Assembly: GCF_053078305.1 (NCBI RefSeq)
Contig: NZ_CP166879.1
Strand: one strand, 5' to 3'
Length of the DNA stretch: 64,000 nt
The position numbers and the translations under genes were made by a program. Below are positions 1,003 through 8,537 of the stretch, one piece after another; position 1 is the first letter of the stretch, and every line of letters starts with the position of its first letter. The notes beneath the pieces were generated by a model, which did no database searches, was not told the DNA's origin, and saw only the letters and a list, made by a program, of their open reading frames with translations.

Positions 1003-2084
1003 TGCCTTATCAGCCCTTACCACTGGCGCAACTGATCACACAGACACAACAGGATATCAGCCAGCGCCTGCCCGGTTCGCAGCCGGGCGTGAATGAAACC
1101 ACCCTGAATGCCATTGCGTATGCACTGGCGGGTCTGTCAGCACAGGAGCATGAACATCTGGCCTGGATCTCCCGGCAGATAATTCCGACAGAAGCTGATG
1201 AAGCCGAACTCCTGAAACACTGCGCATTCTGGGGTGTCATCCGTAAACCGGCTTCCCGCGCTGACGGACCGGTACAACTGATGCTGACCACGGATGCAGG
1301 GATCACGGAAGGCGTACTCCTTCAGCGAAGCGATGGTGTTGTGTACCGCATCACCGGCTCTGCGACCGGAAAAGCCGGAACACTGAATGTTAATGTGGAG
1401 GCGGAAAGTGCGGGGCGCGCTGGAAATACCCCGACCGGAACCCGCCTGTCCTTTATCACGCCACAGGCGGGCATCAACCAGACAGCCACGGTCACCGGCA
1501 CGGGACTCACCGGTGGTGCGGATGTGGAAACGGTGCCGGAGTTGCTGTCCAGGCTGGTATTCCGGGTACAGAACCCGCCATCAGGGGGAACACAGTATGA
1601 TTTTGAACGCTGGGCACGGGAAGTACCGGGCGTGACGCGGGCATGGTGTAAGCCTGAATGGCCTGAGGCGGGTAGTGTTGGTGTGACTTTTGTTCAGGAT
1701 AATAACCCTGACATTTTCCCCGGAGAAGGTGATGTGAAGCGGGTGGCGGATTATATCCGCAGTCATGATGATCCGGCGACGGGCCAGCCCGTTGGTCAGC
1801 CACTTGGGCCGACAATCAGCGTGTTTAAGCTGACCAATAAGTCGGTGGCGTTTGAGATCAGGATTGTACCCAAAACGCCGGAAAATCAGGCTGCCGTAAA
1901 ACAGGCATTAACGGACCTGCTTTATAACGAATCGCGGCCGGGTGGACTTGTATTGCCTTCATCATTCTGGCGGGCTGTTGCAGGGGTGAAAGGACTGGAG
2001 GATTTTGAAGTTCGCAGTCCGCTGAAGTCCGTGATGGCCGGAGATACAGAGTTGCTGACCGTGGGGGAAATCACATGGCTGTAA
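999..2084 (+). CDS. Baseplate J-like protein (Mu gp47 / P2 gpJ type)
   Basis: 361 aa ORF, translationally coupled to flanking genes. Confidence 0.75.
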   Translation: MMPYQPLPLAQLITQTQQDISQRLPGSQPGVNETTLNAIAYALAGLSAQEHEHLAWISRQIIPTEADEAELLKHCAFWGVIRKPASRADGPVQLMLTTDAGITEGVLLQRSDGVVYRITGSATGKAGTLNVNVEAESAGRAGNTPTGTRLSFITPQAGINQTATVTGTGLTGGADVETVPELLSRLVFRVQNPPSGGTQYDFERWAREVPGVTRAWCKPEWPEAGSVGVTFVQDNNPDIFPGEGDVKRVADYIRSHDDPATGQPVGQPLGPTISVFKLTNKSVAFEIRIVPKTPENQAAVKQALTDLLYNESRPGGLVLPSSFWRAVAGVKGLEDFEVRSPLKSVMAGDTELLTVGEITWL

Positions 2085-2632: not shown

Positions 2633-3543
2633 TGTATTTTGTCGACAACAATTCAGGTGTGACCGATATGCCACCACTGGCCCCCTCTCAGGGTACGCAG
2701 GTTAAATGGTTTACTGAAGGTGACGGACGCAAAGGGATCAGCCATATCGGTCAGGACTGGCTGAACATCGTGCAGGCAGAGCTGCTTGCCATTCTGACAG
2801 AAGGAAAGGTTCAGCCGGATAAGGCAAAACTGAACCAGCTGGTGACAGCCATTAAGGCAATCATTGCAGCAAACGCATACAGCCGGAAAAACAACCTTAA
2901 GGAGATTGCGGATGCAGGTGCAGAAGCACAGGCTGCTGCCCGCCGTCATCTGGGGCTGGGAGGATTATCAGGAAAAGACAGTCTGGCTGCTGCTGATGTG
3001 GGAGCACTGGAGAAATCCCGGAATTTTGACGATGTACCGGATAAACCGACGGCCCGCCTGAATCTTGATGTTTACAGTAAGGGAGAAGGCGATGAGCGTT
3101 ATCTGCGCAGGGACCAGAATGGCGCGGATATCCCGGACAAAGGAACCTTTATCGATAACCTCGGTTTACGGGAAACGGTAAATAAGGCTGCTGATGCCCT
3201 GCCATCGGGTGGAACCGCCGTGGCAGCGAATAAACTCGCCACCCCAGTAAATATTAATGGCGTTCCTTTCGACGGAACGCAGGATATCAACATCACGTCA
3301 GGAATGACGCAGTCAACCGCAGATGGCCGGTATGTACAGAATGTTCAGCTTGGAGCACAGAGCTATCATTCACCCGGAGGCAATGAAATGTCATGGAATT
3401 ACAGCGCACCTTCCGGTTGTATGCTTTCCGGTATTAACGTGCAGGAAACCGGCTCCCGGTCTGCGGACAATATCGGTGGGGTCTATTATCGCCCGGTTCA
3501 GATTTATATTAATAATGCCTGGAGAACGGTAAGTTCAGTGTAA
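2632..3543 (+). CDS. Tail fibre protein: constant N-terminal part plus variable C-terminal cassette Sv (expressed orientation)
   Basis: 303 aa ORF; its 3' third contains the left 133-bp inverted repeat; variable C-terminus after position 3290. Confidence 0.8.
   Translation: MYFVDNNSGVTDMPPLAPSQGTQVKWFTEGDGRKGISHIGQDWLNIVQAELLAILTEGKVQPDKAKLNQLVTAIKAIIAANAYSRKNNLKEIADAGAEAQAAARRHLGLGGLSGKDSLAAADVGALEKSRNFDDVPDKPTARLNLDVYSKGEGDERYLRRDQNGADIPDKGTFIDNLGLRETVNKAADALPSGGTAVAANKLATPVNINGVPFDGTQDINITSGMTQSTADGRYVQNVQLGAQSYHSPGGNEMSWNYSAPSGCMLSGINVQETGSRSADNIGGVYYRPVQIYINNAWRTVSSV
3149..3174. other. gix/pix-like recombination site (left crossover site)
   Basis: TTATCGATAACCTCGGTTTACGGGAA, a 12-2-12 imperfect palindrome closely resembling the Gin gix site as recalled. 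Confidence 0.6.
3158..3290. repeat. Left 133-bp inverted repeat of the invertible tail-fibre segment
   Basis: Perfect reverse-complement identity with 4408..4540 (checked base by base). Confidence 0.9.
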
Positions 3544-5254: not shown

Positions 5255-7312
5255 ATGAATATTATGACGTCCAAATGGGTTCAACTATCATCAATGCCCG
5301 GAAACTTTACCGTTAAAGTTTCCGGTGGTACAGCGGCATTTCTTGAGGCTCCTTTTCCTCCGGCTGAAACGAAAGGAGGAATGACATTTGCTGACTGTCT
5401 CATCAGTTTTAATACACAGGATTGCCTGTGGGTAAGGCCAGTATCCGGTGATCCGAACGTGGAAATTACCGGAGCGGGTATTGGTGCTGTCATTCCGTTA
5501 AGTGCTGATGTTGCCGGTACTACTGAACCGTCAGACTGGGATAATGCTGAAACACATACCCGTCCGGCAGGAAATGAAACGGCTTCCAGCTCCCCTTCCT
5601 GGTATTACGTGATTGTTATAGCCGGTCAGTCCAATGCTTCATCTTATGGTGAAGGGTTGCCCCTGCCGGATTCTTATGATCGTCCTGATCCACGTATTAT
5701 GCAGCTGGCACGCAGGAATACACAAACCCCCGGAGGTATTCCCTGCAAATACAATGAAATCATTCCAGCAGATCACTGCCTTCATGATGTTCAGAATATG
5801 AGTCTGCTGAACCATCCAAAAGCAGACCTGAAAAAAGGGCAGTATGGTTGTGTGGGTCAGGGACTTCATATTGCGAAAAAAGTATTACCGGTGATTCCTG
5901 CTGATGCCGGGATTTTACTGGTTCCCTGTGCCCGTGGCGGCTCTGCTTTTACAACCGGCGCAGTTGGCTCATTCGATCCGGCAAGTGGTGCAGCCGAGGC
6001 GTCACTACGCTGGGGAGTGGATACCCCACTGTATCAGGATCTTGTCAGTCGAACGAAAGCGGCACTTGAGGCGAATCCAAAGAATGTGCTGTTATCTGTC
6101 GTATGGATTCAGGGGGAAGGAGACCTTAAAGCGACCCCGGCCCAGCATGGTGCCCAGTTTACTGCGATGGTGAAAAAATTCCGTGCGGATCTTGGTGCTT
6201 TCTCCGGTCAGTGTATTGGTGGTTCATCAGACAGTGTGCCGTGGTTATGTGGTGACACAACCTATGACTGGAAAGAGAAGAACCCGGCGGCATATGAAAC
6301 CATTTATAGCGGATATAAAAACCGGGCTTCCGAGAACATTCACTTTGTTCCACTGATGCACGATGAGTTCGGTAATAAAACCGCGACCAACCTGCCGGAG
6401 CACGACCCGGATATCGCTTCTGCCGGGTATTATGGTGCGGAATCACGGGGAGATGGCAACTGGACAACAGCATCCAGGGCAACCCATTTTAGCTCCTGGG
6501 CGCGCCGTTTTCTGGTCTCAGATCGTTTTGCATCAGCAATTCTTAAATATGCAGGTCTGACCTCTGCATTTATTGCCGGTGTGGCCCCTGATGGTGAAGC
6601 CCTGCCTCAGCCCGCGCCGGGTGGAAAACCGGAAGCTCCGACAGGTAGTCAGCCAGGAAGCAGTGAGTCCCCCCAGCCGACATCCCCGTCACTCCGTACG
6701 CTGCTTTCACTTAAAGCATCAGCAGGGGAAGCCCCGGCTCAGGGATGGAAAATTACAGATGGTACAATCCAGCTGACGGACGAAGGTAAAGCGCTGACCG
6801 TATCCAAACAAAGCGGAAAAACCTGGTCACTTACCCATGCGACCAGTGCTGCCGGAGAGCTGTTGCAGCATGGTGGTCAGTTGACCTGTAAATTCCGTCT
6901 GTCAGGTGAAGTAAAAGAAGGCCAGTTTGCTCTGGGTATTTACCTCCACACCGATACGGTCCCGGAAGGTGTAACCATGAGTGGTACAGGCACACCGTTC
7001 CTGATGGCGTATTATCTCCAGACAACAGGCGGCCAGTTAAATCTGATGCACCATAAAACAGGGGGGAATACGAAACTGGGATCATTTGGAGCCTACAATA
7101 ACCAGTGGCATACACTTGTCCTGAAGTTTACGGCGGGAAGTGCCCAGGTAACGCCTGTGCTGGATGGCACTCCGGGCCAGGCATTCCAGATGGTGAAAGA
7201 TGCACTTTCCCCTGCCAAAGATACGCTGACACTGACAGATGTCACCAAAGGGGCAACTTATGGCGTGTCTTTTGAGAGCGTTGTCCTTGAGGTTAATACC
7301 CCTGCGGCATAA
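5255..7312 (+). CDS. Prophage NanS-like sialate O-acetylesterase (SGNH/SASA hydrolase core with N- and C-terminal extra domains)
   Basis: 685 aa; core YYVIVIAGQSNASSYGEGLPLPD...CGDTTYDWKE resembles E. coli NanS (YjhS) as recalled. Confidence 0.75.
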   Translation: MNIMTSKWVQLSSMPGNFTVKVSGGTAAFLEAPFPPAETKGGMTFADCLISFNTQDCLWVRPVSGDPNVEITGAGIGAVIPLSADVAGTTEPSDWDNAETHTRPAGNETASSSPSWYYVIVIAGQSNASSYGEGLPLPDSYDRPDPRIMQLARRNTQTPGGIPCKYNEIIPADHCLHDVQNMSLLNHPKADLKKGQYGCVGQGLHIAKKVLPVIPADAGILLVPCARGGSAFTTGAVGSFDPASGAAEASLRWGVDTPLYQDLVSRTKAALEANPKNVLLSVVWIQGEGDLKATPAQHGAQFTAMVKKFRADLGAFSGQCIGGSSDSVPWLCGDTTYDWKEKNPAAYETIYSGYKNRASENIHFVPLMHDEFGNKTATNLPEHDPDIASAGYYGAESRGDGNWTTASRATHFSSWARRFLVSDRFASAILKYAGLTSAFIAGVAPDGEALPQPAPGGKPEAPTGSQPGSSESPQPTSPSLRTLLSLKASAGEAPAQGWKITDGTIQLTDEGKALTVSKQSGKTWSLTHATSAAGELLQHGGQLTCKFRLSGEVKEGQFALGIYLHTDTVPEGVTMSGTGTPFLMAYYLQTTGGQLNLMHHKTGGNTKLGSFGAYNNQWHTLVLKFTAGSAQVTPVLDGTPGQAFQMVKDALSPAKDTLTLTDVTKGATYGVSFESVVLEVNTPAA

Positions 7313-7369
7313 TCGTGACGGCCGGGAATTTATCCGGCTGTAACATCAGTTAATAAGAGTGAGGCTTAT

Positions 7370-7549
7370 ATGACATATATAAACGTCTGCCTGCTGTATT
7401 TCTGCACGGTGGTTTGTTGTCTGTTGCTTGTCAGCGGTGGTTATAAAATTATTCGCAATTATTTTCGAAATAAAATTGATGCAGCTGCCGAGGAAAAGAT
7501 AAAAAGCGGTGCTGTAATGCCGCAGCCGAAAGACTCCGGTCAGATTTAA
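7370..7549 (+). CDS. Hypothetical small membrane protein (59 aa, one predicted TM helix, Cys-rich)
   Basis: ATG with GAGTGAGG SD; hydrophobic N-terminus INVCLLYFCTVVCCLLLVSGG; below ORF-track cutoff, found by manual translation. Confidence 0.35.
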   Translation: MTYINVCLLYFCTVVCCLLLVSGGYKIIRNYFRNKIDAAAEEKIKSGAVMPQPKDSGQI

Positions 7550-7584
7550 TTTTTTGTGAACCAGAAAAGGAAAGGAGAATATTC

Positions 7585-7830
7585 ATGCCAGAGATTAAAG
7601 GCACGGTTACTGAAGAGCTTGTCAAACAGGCACTTTATTCTGAAGAAGTGAACCGCGTGCTGAAGGCGCAGGTTCGCAAGGATTTTGAGGCACAAATCGA
7701 CGCATATGTTGATGAAGTGCTGGCCCGAATGGTTGGCCATTCTCCGGCTGAAAACAGCACGGAGAATGAGCCTCAGCCCGTAGAGCAACCAGAGCCGGTT
7801 CAGCCCGGAACTGACAGTGCCATGATGTAA
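7585..7830 (+). CDS. Hypothetical acidic protein (81 aa)
   Basis: Strong SD AAAGGAAAGGAG upstream of ATG; followed by a hairpin terminator. Confidence 0.45.
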   Translation: MPEIKGTVTEELVKQALYSEEVNRVLKAQVRKDFEAQIDAYVDEVLARMVGHSPAENSTENEPQPVEQPEPVQPGTDSAMM

Positions 7831-7836
7831 CAATAC

Positions 7837-7869
7837 AAACCGACAGCTTCTCCTGTCGGTTTGATTTTC
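7837..7869 (+). terminator. Rho-independent terminator
   Basis: AAACCGACAG-CTTCTC-CTGTCGGTTT followed by a T-run. Confidence 0.55.
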
Positions 7870-7904
7870 ATGGGCGATGTATATACCAGTCAGAGGAAAT
7901 AATC

Positions 7905-8105
7905 ATGGACAAGAACAAAAAGCAGCCCGATACCAAAGGTCTGGAAATATTAAGCGCAGAAATTATCAATGCGCTACGTTCAGGACTTGATGAAAATACA
8001 TTACAGGATCGAAACTTCACCACTGCAATGTGGATAGCGATGCAGATCCTGTGTACCCCAAGATGCGCTATTTTTGCGGTTCGTGAGGGTCAGTTGACTC
8101 GCTGA
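7905..8105 (+). CDS. Hypothetical protein (66 aa)
   Basis: ATG with GAGGA SD; no recognisable family. Confidence 0.35.
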   Translation: MDKNKKQPDTKGLEILSAEIINALRSGLDENTLQDRNFTTAMWIAMQILCTPRCAIFAVREGQLTR

Positions 8106-8274
8106 TTGCCCGAATTACATCAGAAAAGCACGCGTTCCATAATTGCATAGCTGATGAATCACCAGCTGTATGAAAAGAGGTAAAGACACAACTGGTGGAT
8201 GTCATTGCTGCAATTGTGATATCAGCTGCAATTCGCGCAGCCTGTAACTTTTGGTCGGTGGTCAGTTTATCCAT
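8068..8274 (-). CDS. Hypothetical protein (68 aa), convergent and 3'-overlapping the 7905..8105 ORF
   Basis: Minus-strand ORF; second ATG has AGGAG SD; only one of the two overlapping ORFs may be real. Confidence 0.25.
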   Translation of the reverse strand: MDKLTTDQKLQAARIAADITIAAMTSTSCVFTSFHTAGDSSAMQLWNACFSDVIRAISESTDPHEPQK

Positions 8275-8352
8275 TTTCTCCTGCCTGAACAGATGCATCT
8301 CTGCTTTACAGGAGGCCGGGGAATATCATAGGATACACCACGAGCTCAGAGT

Positions 8353-8508
8353 GAAGCATTGATGCAGTTTTTTACAGATTGACCCAGAATAGTTCGCGCT
8401 ATCTGAGTCGCCATTTATGTAGTCCCGAAGTAAAGCATTGATGCAAACTTGTCTAAATCGGCCCAGCATAGTTCCAGCTATGCTGGGTTTCCCTTTTATG
8501 TAGTATCC
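8353..8508. repeat. Two imperfect tandem repeats of about 75 bp, the second with a 10-bp-stem hairpin and T-rich tail
   Basis: Shared AAGCATTGATGCA ... CCCAG-ATAGTT ... TTTATGTAGT; hairpin CCCAGCATAG/CTATGCTGGG at 8462..8487. Confidence 0.5.
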
Positions 8509-8537
8509 TGTTGATTTGAAACATACTACATATACGC

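What the first reader, a model, noticed from the sequence alone, without database searches (positions are those of the whole stretch)
8353..8508. Tandem 75-bp repeats with hairpin in the non-coding stretch upstream of com
Two imperfect direct repeats occupy the 650-bp gap between the small-ORF islet and com. The second forms a perfect 10-bp-stem hairpin with a T-rich tail, and a further inverted repeat TATGTAGTAT...ATACTACATA follows at 8498..8531. This looks like an sRNA gene, a terminator/insulator, or binding sites for a late-gene transactivator.
Basis: seen in the sequence. Interest (0 to 1): 0.4.

Follow-up and report, generated by a model that had tools for sequence, protein, structure and literature searches.

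The report
Duplicated small-RNA terminator unit beside com-mom
The two repeats are a doubled copy of a small non-coding unit (conserved box, hairpin, T-rich tail) found next to the com-mom genes of Sp18-type Mu-like prophages; it most likely ends a short rightward RNA, which makes it a modest new prophage small-RNA candidate and not a protein gene or an activator site.

Summary
There are two direct repeats, 8350-8428 and 8429-8508, with a period of 79 bp (not 75) and 58/81 identical positions, far beyond chance. The second copy has a perfect 10-bp hairpin followed by TTTCCCTTTT, and a perfect 10-bp inverted repeat follows it. The window is the right end of an Sp18-like Mu prophage of E. coli. 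About 213 complete E. coli genomes carry this region, but only 8 carry two units; most have one and some have none. Salmonella-like relatives also have one or two units, with the same junction. Seven hairpin alleles keep the stem through compensatory changes. The RefSeq ORF drawn across the unit (ECs_4996; a frameshifted pseudogene in the window's twin) ends at a different place in each allele and is spurious. Real small leftward genes lie just beyond it: p68 in the window and a zinc-ribbon protein in Sakai. Published RNase E-CLASH data from Sakai contain 5 chimeric reads of the rightward strand. They join the two hairpin arms, carry non-genomic A's 6 nt after the stem, and overlap Hfq sites. 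My best reading is an intrinsic terminator ending a short plus-strand RNA, probably started at a conserved TTTACA-18-TAGGAT and antisense to the leader of the leftward gene. An activator (C/Mor) site is not supported. Interest is modest.

The parts
8305..8334 (+). Promoter-like site TTTACA-18 nt-TAGGAT, the candidate start of the plus-strand RNA (predicted start near 8341)
   Evidence: Consensus scans find it in the window and in Sakai. Both hexamers are invariant in all E. coli and Salmonella-like alleles while the spacer varies. Caveat: the same bases lie in a long-range complementarity and a small apex hairpin, so their conservation could be structural.
8350..8428 (+). Repeat unit 1: box AAGCATTGATGC (8354-8365), U-rich linker, imperfect hairpin 8381-8392 / 8399-8409, end ATTTATGTAGT, junction CCCGA
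   Evidence: The covariance model of the unit scores it at 76 bits. On the plus strand the hairpin has a C.A mismatch and a bulged A, and it has no T-run, so it is a poor terminator.
8429..8508 (+). Repeat unit 2: box AAGCATTGATGC (8433-8444), linker, perfect hairpin 8462-8471 / 8478-8487, tail TTTCCCTTTTAT (8488-8499)
   Evidence: the model scores it at 89 bits. The Sakai equivalent is the RNA seen in RNase E-CLASH.
8460..8499 (+). Intrinsic-terminator-like site of unit 2; the predicted plus-strand 3' end is about 8493
   Evidence: The terminator scan reports 13 pairs including G.U, followed by TCCCTTTTAT. Stem covariation is shown. The CLASH chimera ends at ...GGGUUUCAC plus two non-genomic A's.
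8497..8532 (.). Inverted repeat TATGTAGTAT-16 nt-ATACTACATA; its left arm is the end of unit 2
   Evidence: I6. The arms and the 20-nt gap between the 8-nt core arms are conserved in L050 and L051 while the spacer sequence varies. The repeat is weakened in L119 and half-lost in L117. It would be the 5'-terminal hairpin of a leftward transcript that starts near 8534.
8541..8568 (-). Leftward promoter-like site TTGACT-16 nt-TAGGAT; the -10 hexamer overlaps GATC 8540-8543
   Evidence: The equivalents are TTGACT-16-TAAGAT in L050 and L119 and TTGACG-16-TATAAT in L051, each with a different spacer. This is inferred only; no transcript data exist.
8294..8309 (.). Left edge of the conserved module; it is complementary to the box region of each unit (8430-8445 and 8351-8365)
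   Evidence: I3: 16 nt, 88% complementary. It is predicted as a long-range helix in leader folds. Homology between the window and Sakai begins here.
8068..8274 (-). Unannotated leftward gene p68 (68 aa, MDKLTTDQ...), which sits where the zinc-ribbon gene sits in Sakai-type phages
   Evidence: dN/dS is 0.12-0.38 among three variants. There is a weak PHROG match only.
8326..8646 (-). 106-aa ORF across both units, equivalent to ECs_4996 / phrog_26524 and called a frameshifted pseudogene by PGAP in the identical strain; judged spurious
   Evidence: The ORF ends after 56, 99, 106, 135, 153 or 154 aa depending on the allele, and it is absent in Salmonella-like alleles.
8761..8961 (+). com, followed by mom at 8915-9652; this is the downstream operon that the terminator would shield

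Best explanation
Each ~79-bp unit is the body of a short rightward (plus-strand) non-coding RNA. It consists of a conserved 5' box (AAGCAUUGAUGC), a U-rich variable linker, a hairpin whose stem co-varies, and a pyrimidine/U tail. In the window the body is present twice in tandem. Hairpin 1 (8381-8409) is crippled as a terminator, so transcription should run on to hairpin 2 (8462-8487 plus UUUCCCUUUU) and stop near 8493. That would give an RNA of about 150 nt, instead of the ~75-nt RNA of single-unit phages. The likely start is the conserved TTTACA-18-TAGGAT at 8305-8334. The RNA runs antisense to the 5' leader of a small leftward gene (p68 here, a zinc-ribbon protein in Sakai), which is probably driven by TTGACT-16-TAGGAT at 8568-8541. 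Its terminator also keeps rightward transcription out of the com-mom control region. Three things are shown: the repeat, the covarying hairpin, and, for the Sakai allele, a plus-strand RNA in vivo with paired arms, an oligoadenylated 3' end just after the stem, and RNase E and Hfq association. Four things are inferred: the promoter, the size of the RNA, the antisense and insulating roles, and expression of the two-unit form.
For: The repeat and hairpin are statistically real. The unit is conserved with 0, 1 or 2 copies in Sp18-like prophages. About 213 of 5426 complete E. coli genomes carry the region, and 8 carry the two-unit junction. It also occurs in Salmonella-like relatives (L050 and L119 with one unit; L051 and L117 with two). 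The duplication junction is the same in both lineages (GTAGT followed by YCGWAGTA). In seven hairpin alleles (x, y, y', z, s, s2, s3) 97.7% of cells are paired, 4 of 12 pairs change on both sides, and 0/500 shuffles reach this. The conservation pattern is typical of an sRNA: an invariant 5' box, a variable linker, a co-varying terminator stem and a tail. The common allele x has a U-rich tail, and the terminator scan finds it in both the window and Sakai. Waters et al. 2017, Table EV2, lists hybrid 634939-2_6 with both halves labelled 'asECs4996' (the plus strand), 5 unique hybrids, Hfq overlap 1/1, and read CAGCTATGCTGGGTTTCAC-AA-ACAGATTGACCCAGCATAGTT. The paper states that non-encoded oligo(A) marks in vivo 3' ends. 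The promoter hexamers are invariant while the spacer varies. The rival coding reading fails.
Against: No transcription start has been mapped. The plus-strand RNA could be read-through from upstream rather than a discrete sRNA. The RNA is not among the named Hfq-bound sRNAs of Tree et al. 2014; the only Sp18 entry there is EcOnc37, about 1 kb away. The experimental support is a single table row for the one-unit Sakai allele, not the two-unit form. Alleles y', z, s, s2 and s3 have weak U-tracts (UC(U)CCCUUUAUG), so termination may be inefficient there. The -35 and -10 hexamers coincide with a long-range helix and an apex hairpin, which is a perfect 10-bp stem in L051, so their conservation may be structural. 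In hairpin 1 of the window and of L051, and in the long-range helix of L050, the mismatches are C.A on the plus strand but G.U on the minus strand, which favours a minus-strand RNA structure. Both strands fold equally well (z = -4 to -8). There is no Rfam match.
Confidence: 0.5

Rival explanations
1. The structures work on the minus strand. The region 8534->8275 would be the long, highly structured 5' leader of the leftward small gene (p68 or the zinc-ribbon gene), transcribed from TTGACT-16-TAGGAT (8568-8541). The inverted repeat would be a 5'-terminal stabiliser hairpin. The unit hairpins and the box/left-edge helix would control mRNA stability or translation. The plus-strand RNA would be incidental. 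This reading can coexist with the best explanation as a sense/antisense pair.
For: The leftward promoter hexamers are conserved while the spacers vary, and the predicted start falls on the first base of the inverted-repeat arm in E. coli, L050, L051 and L119. Real genes with Shine-Dalgarno sequences follow directly. In L117 the units lie between two leftward ORFs, so leftward transcription must cross them. G.U on the minus strand corresponds to C.A on the plus strand in hairpin 1 of the window and L051, and in the long-range helix of L050. The leader folds with z = -4 to -7.
Against: There is no experimental sign of the minus-strand RNA; the CLASH table lists only the antisense of ECs4996. The two outermost pairs of the terminal hairpin are G.U on the plus strand and A.C on the minus strand. 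The long-range helix is broken without compensation in L119 and partly in L051 copy 2. The Shine-Dalgarno sequence of p68 is not conserved in L012 and L049. The plus strand folds equally well.
Confidence: 0.3
2. The hairpin is only a terminator or insulator. It would stop read-through from the upstream rightward genes (nanS-p-like, DUF1378, DUF826, p66) before the toxic com-mom operon. It would have no promoter of its own and no RNA function, and the second copy would be a neutral or backup tandem terminator.
For: Terminator-like anatomy and an in vivo 3' end. mom expression is tightly controlled in Mu (established knowledge). The copy number varies freely between 0, 1 and 2.
Against: A strong bidirectional terminator already follows DUF826, at 7836-7863 in the window and at the equivalent place in Sakai. 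In Sakai-type phages the 330 bp upstream of the unit is the antisense of a leftward gene. The 5' box is more conserved than a mere spacer would need to be. Several alleles have weak U-tracts.
Confidence: 0.15
3. The database reading: a minus-strand protein gene (ECs_4996 / phrog_26524) that a 79-bp duplication has frameshifted into a pseudogene in this window.
For: RefSeq annotates a 154-aa CDS in Sakai and a frameshifted pseudogene in the strain identical to the window. 79 is not a multiple of 3. The PHROG family match has E = 2.5e-34.
Against: The ORF ends after 56 aa (type C, L049), 99, 106, 135, 153 or 154 aa depending on the allele. Its C-terminal part changes frame between alleles. It does not exist in Salmonella-like alleles that keep the unit. 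It has no convincing ribosome-binding site. Its conserved 'N-terminus' is the com-mom control DNA. The only conserved coding part is the separate 53-56-aa zinc-ribbon gene with its own AAGGAG. There is no Pfam domain.
Confidence: 0.03
4. The repeats are DNA binding sites for the late activator C (or Mor), or for Com on RNA.
For: The repeated motifs TTTATGTAGT (three times, one inverted) and the near-palindromic box GCATTGATGC look like protein sites, and the arms of the inverted repeat are conserved at constant spacing.
Against: The units lie 250-400 bp upstream of com, whereas Mu C acts just upstream of the -35 (established knowledge). None of the motifs recurs upstream of lys, the head or the tail operons of Sp18 or elsewhere in the window beyond chance. 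The hairpin arms co-vary rather than keep a fixed sequence. The loops lack Com's CC(N)2-3GAG motif in a C-G-closed hexaloop.
Confidence: 0.02

Closest known systems
Rho-independent (intrinsic) terminators, including tandem or backup terminators that insulate toxic phage genes
   Same: It has a G+C-containing 10-13-bp stem, a 4-6-nt loop and a U-rich tail. The stem is kept by compensatory changes. An in vivo 3' end lies a few nt after the stem. It sits upstream of the tightly controlled com-mom operon.
   Different: Only allele x has a good U-tract. The first copy in the window is crippled. The unit carries a conserved 5' box that a bare terminator does not need.
Prophage-encoded Hfq-associated small RNAs of EHEC (EcOnc series, AsxR/AgvB; Tree et al. 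2014, PMC4104026)
   Same: It is a short RNA made by a prophage of O157 Sakai, ending in a terminator hairpin. It lies beside accessory ('moron') genes, is flagged as overlapping Hfq-CRAC reads, and was recovered with RNase E.
   Different: It sits in a Mu-like rather than a lambdoid prophage. It has no sequence or Rfam relation to AsxR/AgvB. It is not in the published EcOnc list. Its targets are unknown.
cis-antisense RNA control of a convergent gene (IS10 RNA-OUT/RNA-IN, hok/sok, lambda OOP)
   Same: It has convergent promoter-like sites about 200-280 bp apart. A short structured RNA is complementary to the 5' leader of a small gene. As in IS10 pIN, the leftward -10 overlaps a Dam GATC site.
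   Different: Neither promoter is verified. The antisense RNA would not cover the ribosome-binding site. The downstream proteins (a zinc ribbon and p68) do not look like membrane toxins.
Regulatory region of phage Mu mom (Dam/OxyR sites, C-dependent Pmom, leftward momP2)
   Same: The genomic position is the same (upstream of com-mom, at the right end of a Mu-like genome). There is a GATC cluster and a palindrome just upstream of com (8693-8717), and a leftward promoter-like site.
   Different: No DNA similarity to Mu was detectable in the phage collection. Mu has gin directly upstream and no such repeat unit. The unit is restricted to the Sp18/Salmonella subgroup.

Membership tests
Intrinsic (Rho-independent) terminator | Stable G+C-containing stem with a short loop | tested here: met
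   Unit 2 has a 10 perfect pairs (13 with G.U) and a 4-6-nt loop; the fold gives z = -3.5. Unit 1 has an imperfect stem.
Intrinsic (Rho-independent) terminator | U-rich tract directly after the stem | tested here: inconclusive
   This is met in allele x (UUUCCCUUUU in the window's unit 2; UUUCACUUUU in Sakai). It is weak in alleles y', z, s, s2 and s3 (UC(U)CCCUUUAUG) and absent after unit 1 of the window.
Intrinsic (Rho-independent) terminator | RNA 3' end in vivo a few nt after the stem | tested here: met
   Published CLASH chimera for the Sakai allele: the read shows ...GGGUUUCAC followed by two non-genomic A's, from 5 unique hybrids. No data exist for the window's two-unit allele.
Hfq-dependent small RNA (EHEC EcOnc type) | Own promoter and primary 5' end | not testable with these tools
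   There is only a consensus match, TTTACA-18-TAGGAT, with conserved hexamers. No start-site data were found.
Hfq-dependent small RNA (EHEC EcOnc type) | Hfq binding in vivo | tested here: inconclusive
   Table EV2 flags both halves as overlapping Hfq-CRAC reads. However, the locus is not among the named EcOnc sRNAs of Tree et al. 2014.
Hfq-dependent small RNA (EHEC EcOnc type) | Membership of a described RNA family | tested here: not met
   A permissive Rfam 15 scan gave nothing on the plus strand at the locus; the best overlapping match is a minus-strand tsr24 hit at E = 0.54, far below its gathering score.
cis-antisense / type I toxin-antitoxin module | Overlapping convergent transcripts | tested here: inconclusive
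   The plus-strand RNA is shown. The minus-strand transcript is inferred only from the promoter-like site and gene order.
cis-antisense / type I toxin-antitoxin module | Small hydrophobic toxic peptide as the target gene | tested here: not met
   The targets would be a CxxC...CxxC zinc-ribbon protein or p68. Neither is hydrophobic, and neither matches a toxin family.
Mu C / Mor activator binding site | Site immediately upstream of the -35 of a late or middle promoter, shared among those promoters | tested here: not met
   The units lie 250-400 bp from com, and the motifs are absent upstream of the other late operons of Sp18 and not enriched in the window.
Com-binding RNA hairpin | CC(N)2-3GAG in a hexaloop closed by C-G (PMC6483171) | tested here: not met
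   The plus-strand loops are TTCCAG, TTCGCG, CTGTAA, TTCCAC, GTAGCA, GTCGCA and TTAGCG (or their complements), all closed by G-C; none has the motif.
Protein-coding gene ECs_4996 / phrog_26524 | Reading frame and length conserved among homologues | tested here: not met
   The ORF is 56, 99, 106, 135, 153 or 154 aa depending on the allele, with frame switches in the C-terminal part, and it is absent in Salmonella-like alleles.

The most novel reading that the evidence does not exclude
The unit is the core of a copy-number-variable sense/antisense switch attached to the mom control region. A Dam-sensitive leftward promoter (GATC inside its -10) would drive a small zinc-ribbon or p68 gene through a structured leader. 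A constitutive rightward Hfq/RNase E-bound antisense RNA, made of one or two units, would silence that gene in the lysogen. Unequal crossing-over at the GWAGT microhomology would then change the antisense dose between phage lineages.
Probability: 0.15. Interest if true: 0.5.

Novelty: new member of a known kind. Interest (0 to 1): 0.3.

Why it matters
If the reading is right, Sp18-type Mu-like prophages, which are present in about 4% of complete E. coli genomes including O157 Sakai, carry an undescribed small RNA and terminator next to com-mom. Current annotation hides it under a spurious hypothetical ORF or 'pseudogene'. It also hides two real small genes: a 53-56-aa zinc-ribbon protein and p68. 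Correcting this improves prophage annotation and adds a Mu-like example to the mostly lambdoid catalogue of EHEC prophage sRNAs. It also offers a natural 0/1/2-copy series for testing terminator or antisense dosage. It does not change any general principle.

Tried and rejected
- **Rfam:** a permissive scan of 7300-9800 found no credible family.
- **Tandem Repeats Finder:** it does not call the array.
- **Phage collection:** only two records match, both Stx phages with an inserted Mu-like phage. There is no similarity to Mu itself.
- **Coding hypothesis (ECs_4996):** rejected on frame inconsistency. Pfam found nothing, and the PHROG match is only the family of the same annotated ORFs.
- **C/Mor site hypothesis:** the motifs are not found upstream of the other late operons of Sp18 and are not enriched in the window.
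- **Com-target hypothesis:** the loop motif is absent.
- **Covariation of the palindrome with the zinc-ribbon protein (autoregulator idea):** rejected, because alleles x, y' and z share identical or near-identical proteins and x also occurs with p68.
- **Strand assignment by folding energy:** uninformative, because both strands give z = -4 to -8. G.U versus C.A counts are split between the helices (and direct reading).
- **Covariance-model search of 50 other Mom loci:** no further copies.
- **Genome-contig scan with the promoter pattern:** no hit.
- **Literature:** there is no mention of ECs4996 or of an Sp18 sRNA other than EcOnc37. The supplements of Sy et al. 2020 are not held.
- **Small ORFs inside the unit:** none is conserved on either strand (direct reading of the alleles).

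Full report
**Context.** The left 9.7 kb of the window is the right end of a Mu-like prophage of the Sp18 type, first described in E. coli O157:H7 Sakai. The gene order is an invertase, a SASA/DUF6645 protein (5255-7312), DUF1378 (7370-7549), DUF826 (7585-7830), a 66-aa ORF (7905-8105), com (8761-8961) and mom (8915-9652). The finding lies between the small ORFs and com.

**Observation.** The repeat is real.
- The repeat finder reports 8350-8402 and 8429-8481, 53 nt, 75% identical, 79 bp apart. The unit's end (YTTTATGTAGT) recurs at 8411 and 8492.
- With gaps, 58 of 81 columns are identical.
- The repeat score is 20.5, against 8.9 +/- 1.0 in 300 dinucleotide shuffles. Tandem Repeats Finder does not call it.
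- Unit 2 carries the perfect hairpin 8462-8471 / 8478-8487 followed by TTTCCCTTTTAT. The terminator scan picks it up, and the fold has z = -3.5.
- Unit 1 carries the homologous hairpin (8381-8392 / 8399-8409), but with a C.A mismatch, a bulged A and no T-run (z = -0.5 on its own).
- The inverted repeat 8497-8506 / 8523-8532 is perfect.

**Relatives.**
- The 421 bp around the repeat match 232 of 5426 complete E. coli genomes. In nearly all of them the match spans only about 342 bp, so they have one unit. Only 8 genomes contain the unit1-unit2 junction.
- Fetched loci from IMG/VR, metagenomes, Logan and RefSeq gave 19 distinct versions.
- Single-unit alleles fall into types A (Sakai), B and C.
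- The window is [5' half of A + hairpin of C][5' half of C + hairpin of A]. Deleting between the two CCCAG motifs gives exactly type A. Another two-unit phage, L049, has type C as its second unit.
- More distant Mu-like phages (Mom about 80% identical, with a zinc-ribbon neighbour named from Salmonella enterica) also have one unit (L050, L119) or two (L051, L117). The junction is the same in both lineages, GTAGT followed by YCGWAGTA.
- The two-unit state is therefore old, or it re-forms at the same microhomology. Single units can be derived from it by unequal crossing-over. One variant, L008, lacks the whole element.
- A covariance model of the unit finds it only in these phages. It is absent from 50 other Mom-encoding loci, from elsewhere in Sp18 and from the rest of the window.

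**The hairpin is under selection.** I placed the seven hairpin alleles in register by hand, using N as a gap placeholder. This registration leans towards the structure, so the count has that caveat. In it, 97.7% of cells pair. Four of 12 pairs change on both sides (C-G to U-A, A-U to G-C, U-A to C-G), and one pair is lost on both arms together. No shuffle in 500 reaches this, and slid registers give 26-46% pairing.

**It is not a protein gene.** RefSeq draws a 154-aa hypothetical CDS (ECs_4996) across the unit on the minus strand in Sakai. PGAP calls a frameshifted pseudogene in a strain identical to the window. The ORF, however, ends after 56, 99, 106, 135, 153 or 154 aa depending on the allele. 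It switches frame in its C-terminal part, and it does not exist in the Salmonella-like alleles. The part that is conserved is a separate 53-56-aa CxxC...CxxC zinc-ribbon gene with its own AAGGAG, 46% identical between E. coli and Salmonella-like phages. In the window that gene is replaced by p68 (8274->8068). p68 is unannotated but under purifying selection, with dN/dS of 0.12-0.38.

**Which strand works?** Both strands of the ~180-260-nt region fold far better than shuffles (z = -4 to -8), so energy does not decide.

*Evidence for the plus strand:*
- Allele x has a U-rich tail.
- The outer pairs of the terminal hairpin are G.U on the plus strand.
- A promoter-like TTTACA-18-TAGGAT (8305-8334) has invariant hexamers and a variable spacer.
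- There is published experimental evidence. Table EV2 of Waters et al. 2017 (RNase E-CLASH in O157 Sakai) lists hybrid 634939-2_6. Both halves are 'asECs4996', which is the plus strand. There are 5 unique hybrids, both halves overlap Hfq-CRAC reads, and dG is -21.4. The read is CAGCTATGCTGGGTTTCAC-AA-ACAGATTGACCCAGCATAGTT. The two arms of the hairpin were ligated, and the 3' arm ends 6 nt after the stem with two non-genomic A's. The authors treat such A's as marks of in vivo 3' ends. In window coordinates this end is about 8493.

*Evidence for the minus strand:*
- A leftward promoter-like TTGACT-16-TAGGAT (8568-8541) is conserved with variable spacers. Its -10 overlaps a GATC site. Its predicted start falls on the first base of the inverted-repeat arm in every lineage.
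- Real genes follow it.
- In L117 the units lie between two leftward ORFs.
- Some mismatches are G.U only on the minus strand: hairpin 1 of the window and of L051, and the box/left-edge helix of L050.
- The plus-strand 'promoter' hexamers also lie inside that helix and inside an apex hairpin, which weakens the promoter argument.

**Conclusion on mechanism.** The best-supported reading (about 0.5) is that the unit is the body and intrinsic terminator of a short plus-strand RNA. That RNA is antisense to the leader of the leftward small gene, and its terminator also shields the com-mom control region. The window holds a doubled body whose first terminator is crippled. A minus-strand leader function (about 0.3) may coexist with this. 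A bare terminator without its own promoter is the third option (about 0.15). The database pseudogene reading and the C/Mor or Com site readings are rejected.

**Comparison with known systems.** The element behaves like an intrinsic terminator or an EHEC prophage sRNA, and possibly like a cis-antisense pair of the IS10 kind. It belongs to no Rfam family. It is not in the EcOnc catalogue; the only Sp18 entry there is EcOnc37, about 1 kb upstream. I found no paper describing it. It is a new member of a known kind, of modest interest.

Noticed in passing
window 8068-8274 (-) and 7905-8105 (+): Two convergent small genes overlap by 38 bp. p66 is annotated by PGAP and has dN/dS of 0.07-0.12. p68 is not annotated and has dN/dS of 0.12-0.38. 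In other Sp18-like phages p68 is replaced by a 53-56-aa zinc-ribbon gene, so this looks like a variable cargo slot beside com-mom.
   Followed up: partly
window 5255-7549: A 685-aa SASA/DUF6645 protein, followed by DUF1378 and DUF826 genes, sits in a Mu-like prophage. From memory this resembles the NanS-p esterase module found downstream of stx in lambdoid Stx phages; that resemblance was not tested.
   Followed up: no
L002 about 2645-2715 (-), Sakai Sp18; the window equivalent is near 7312-7370: Tree et al. 2014 list an Hfq-bound sRNA, EcOnc37, in Sp18 at 5077340-5077410 (-) in old coordinates. That is at the 3' end of the SASA/DUF6645 gene, about 1 kb upstream of the repeat. The intergenic space is much shorter in the window (57 bp versus 147 bp), so this sRNA may be absent here.
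   Followed up: no
window 8538-8720: There are GATC sites at 8540, 8574, 8587, 8697 and 8709, and a palindrome AATCGATCG-N7-CGATCGATT at 8693-8717 just upstream of com. This is reminiscent of the Dam/OxyR control of Mu mom. One GATC lies inside the -10 of the leftward promoter-like site.
   Followed up: no
L006 165-1217 and L008 165-1217: In some Sp18-like phages the same upstream control region, including the com start, is followed by a 350-aa C5 DNA methyltransferase (PF00145) instead of Mom.
   Followed up: no
L117 about 1300-1500 (- strand of the locus): A Salmonella-like two-unit allele has an extra 55-60-aa leftward ORF (MKMNTDKQKNEERF...) inserted where the inverted repeat's right arm and the leftward promoter lie in other alleles. 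Its stop codon sits in the CATAAAGGG motif just before hairpin 2.
   Followed up: partly
L023 / L028 (IMG/VR contig 2703718800_000013): The unit region contains 'NN' exactly between two CCCAG motifs. This is probably an assembly collapse of the two-unit repeat, so short-read assemblies may under-count two-unit alleles.
   Followed up: no
L002 3304-3768, Sakai: In Sakai a 1-nt insertion (CTTTCATCC instead of CTTTATCC) puts the zinc-ribbon coding frame in phase with the upstream spurious ORF. This explains why the 154-aa ECs_4996 was annotated there.
   Followed up: yes
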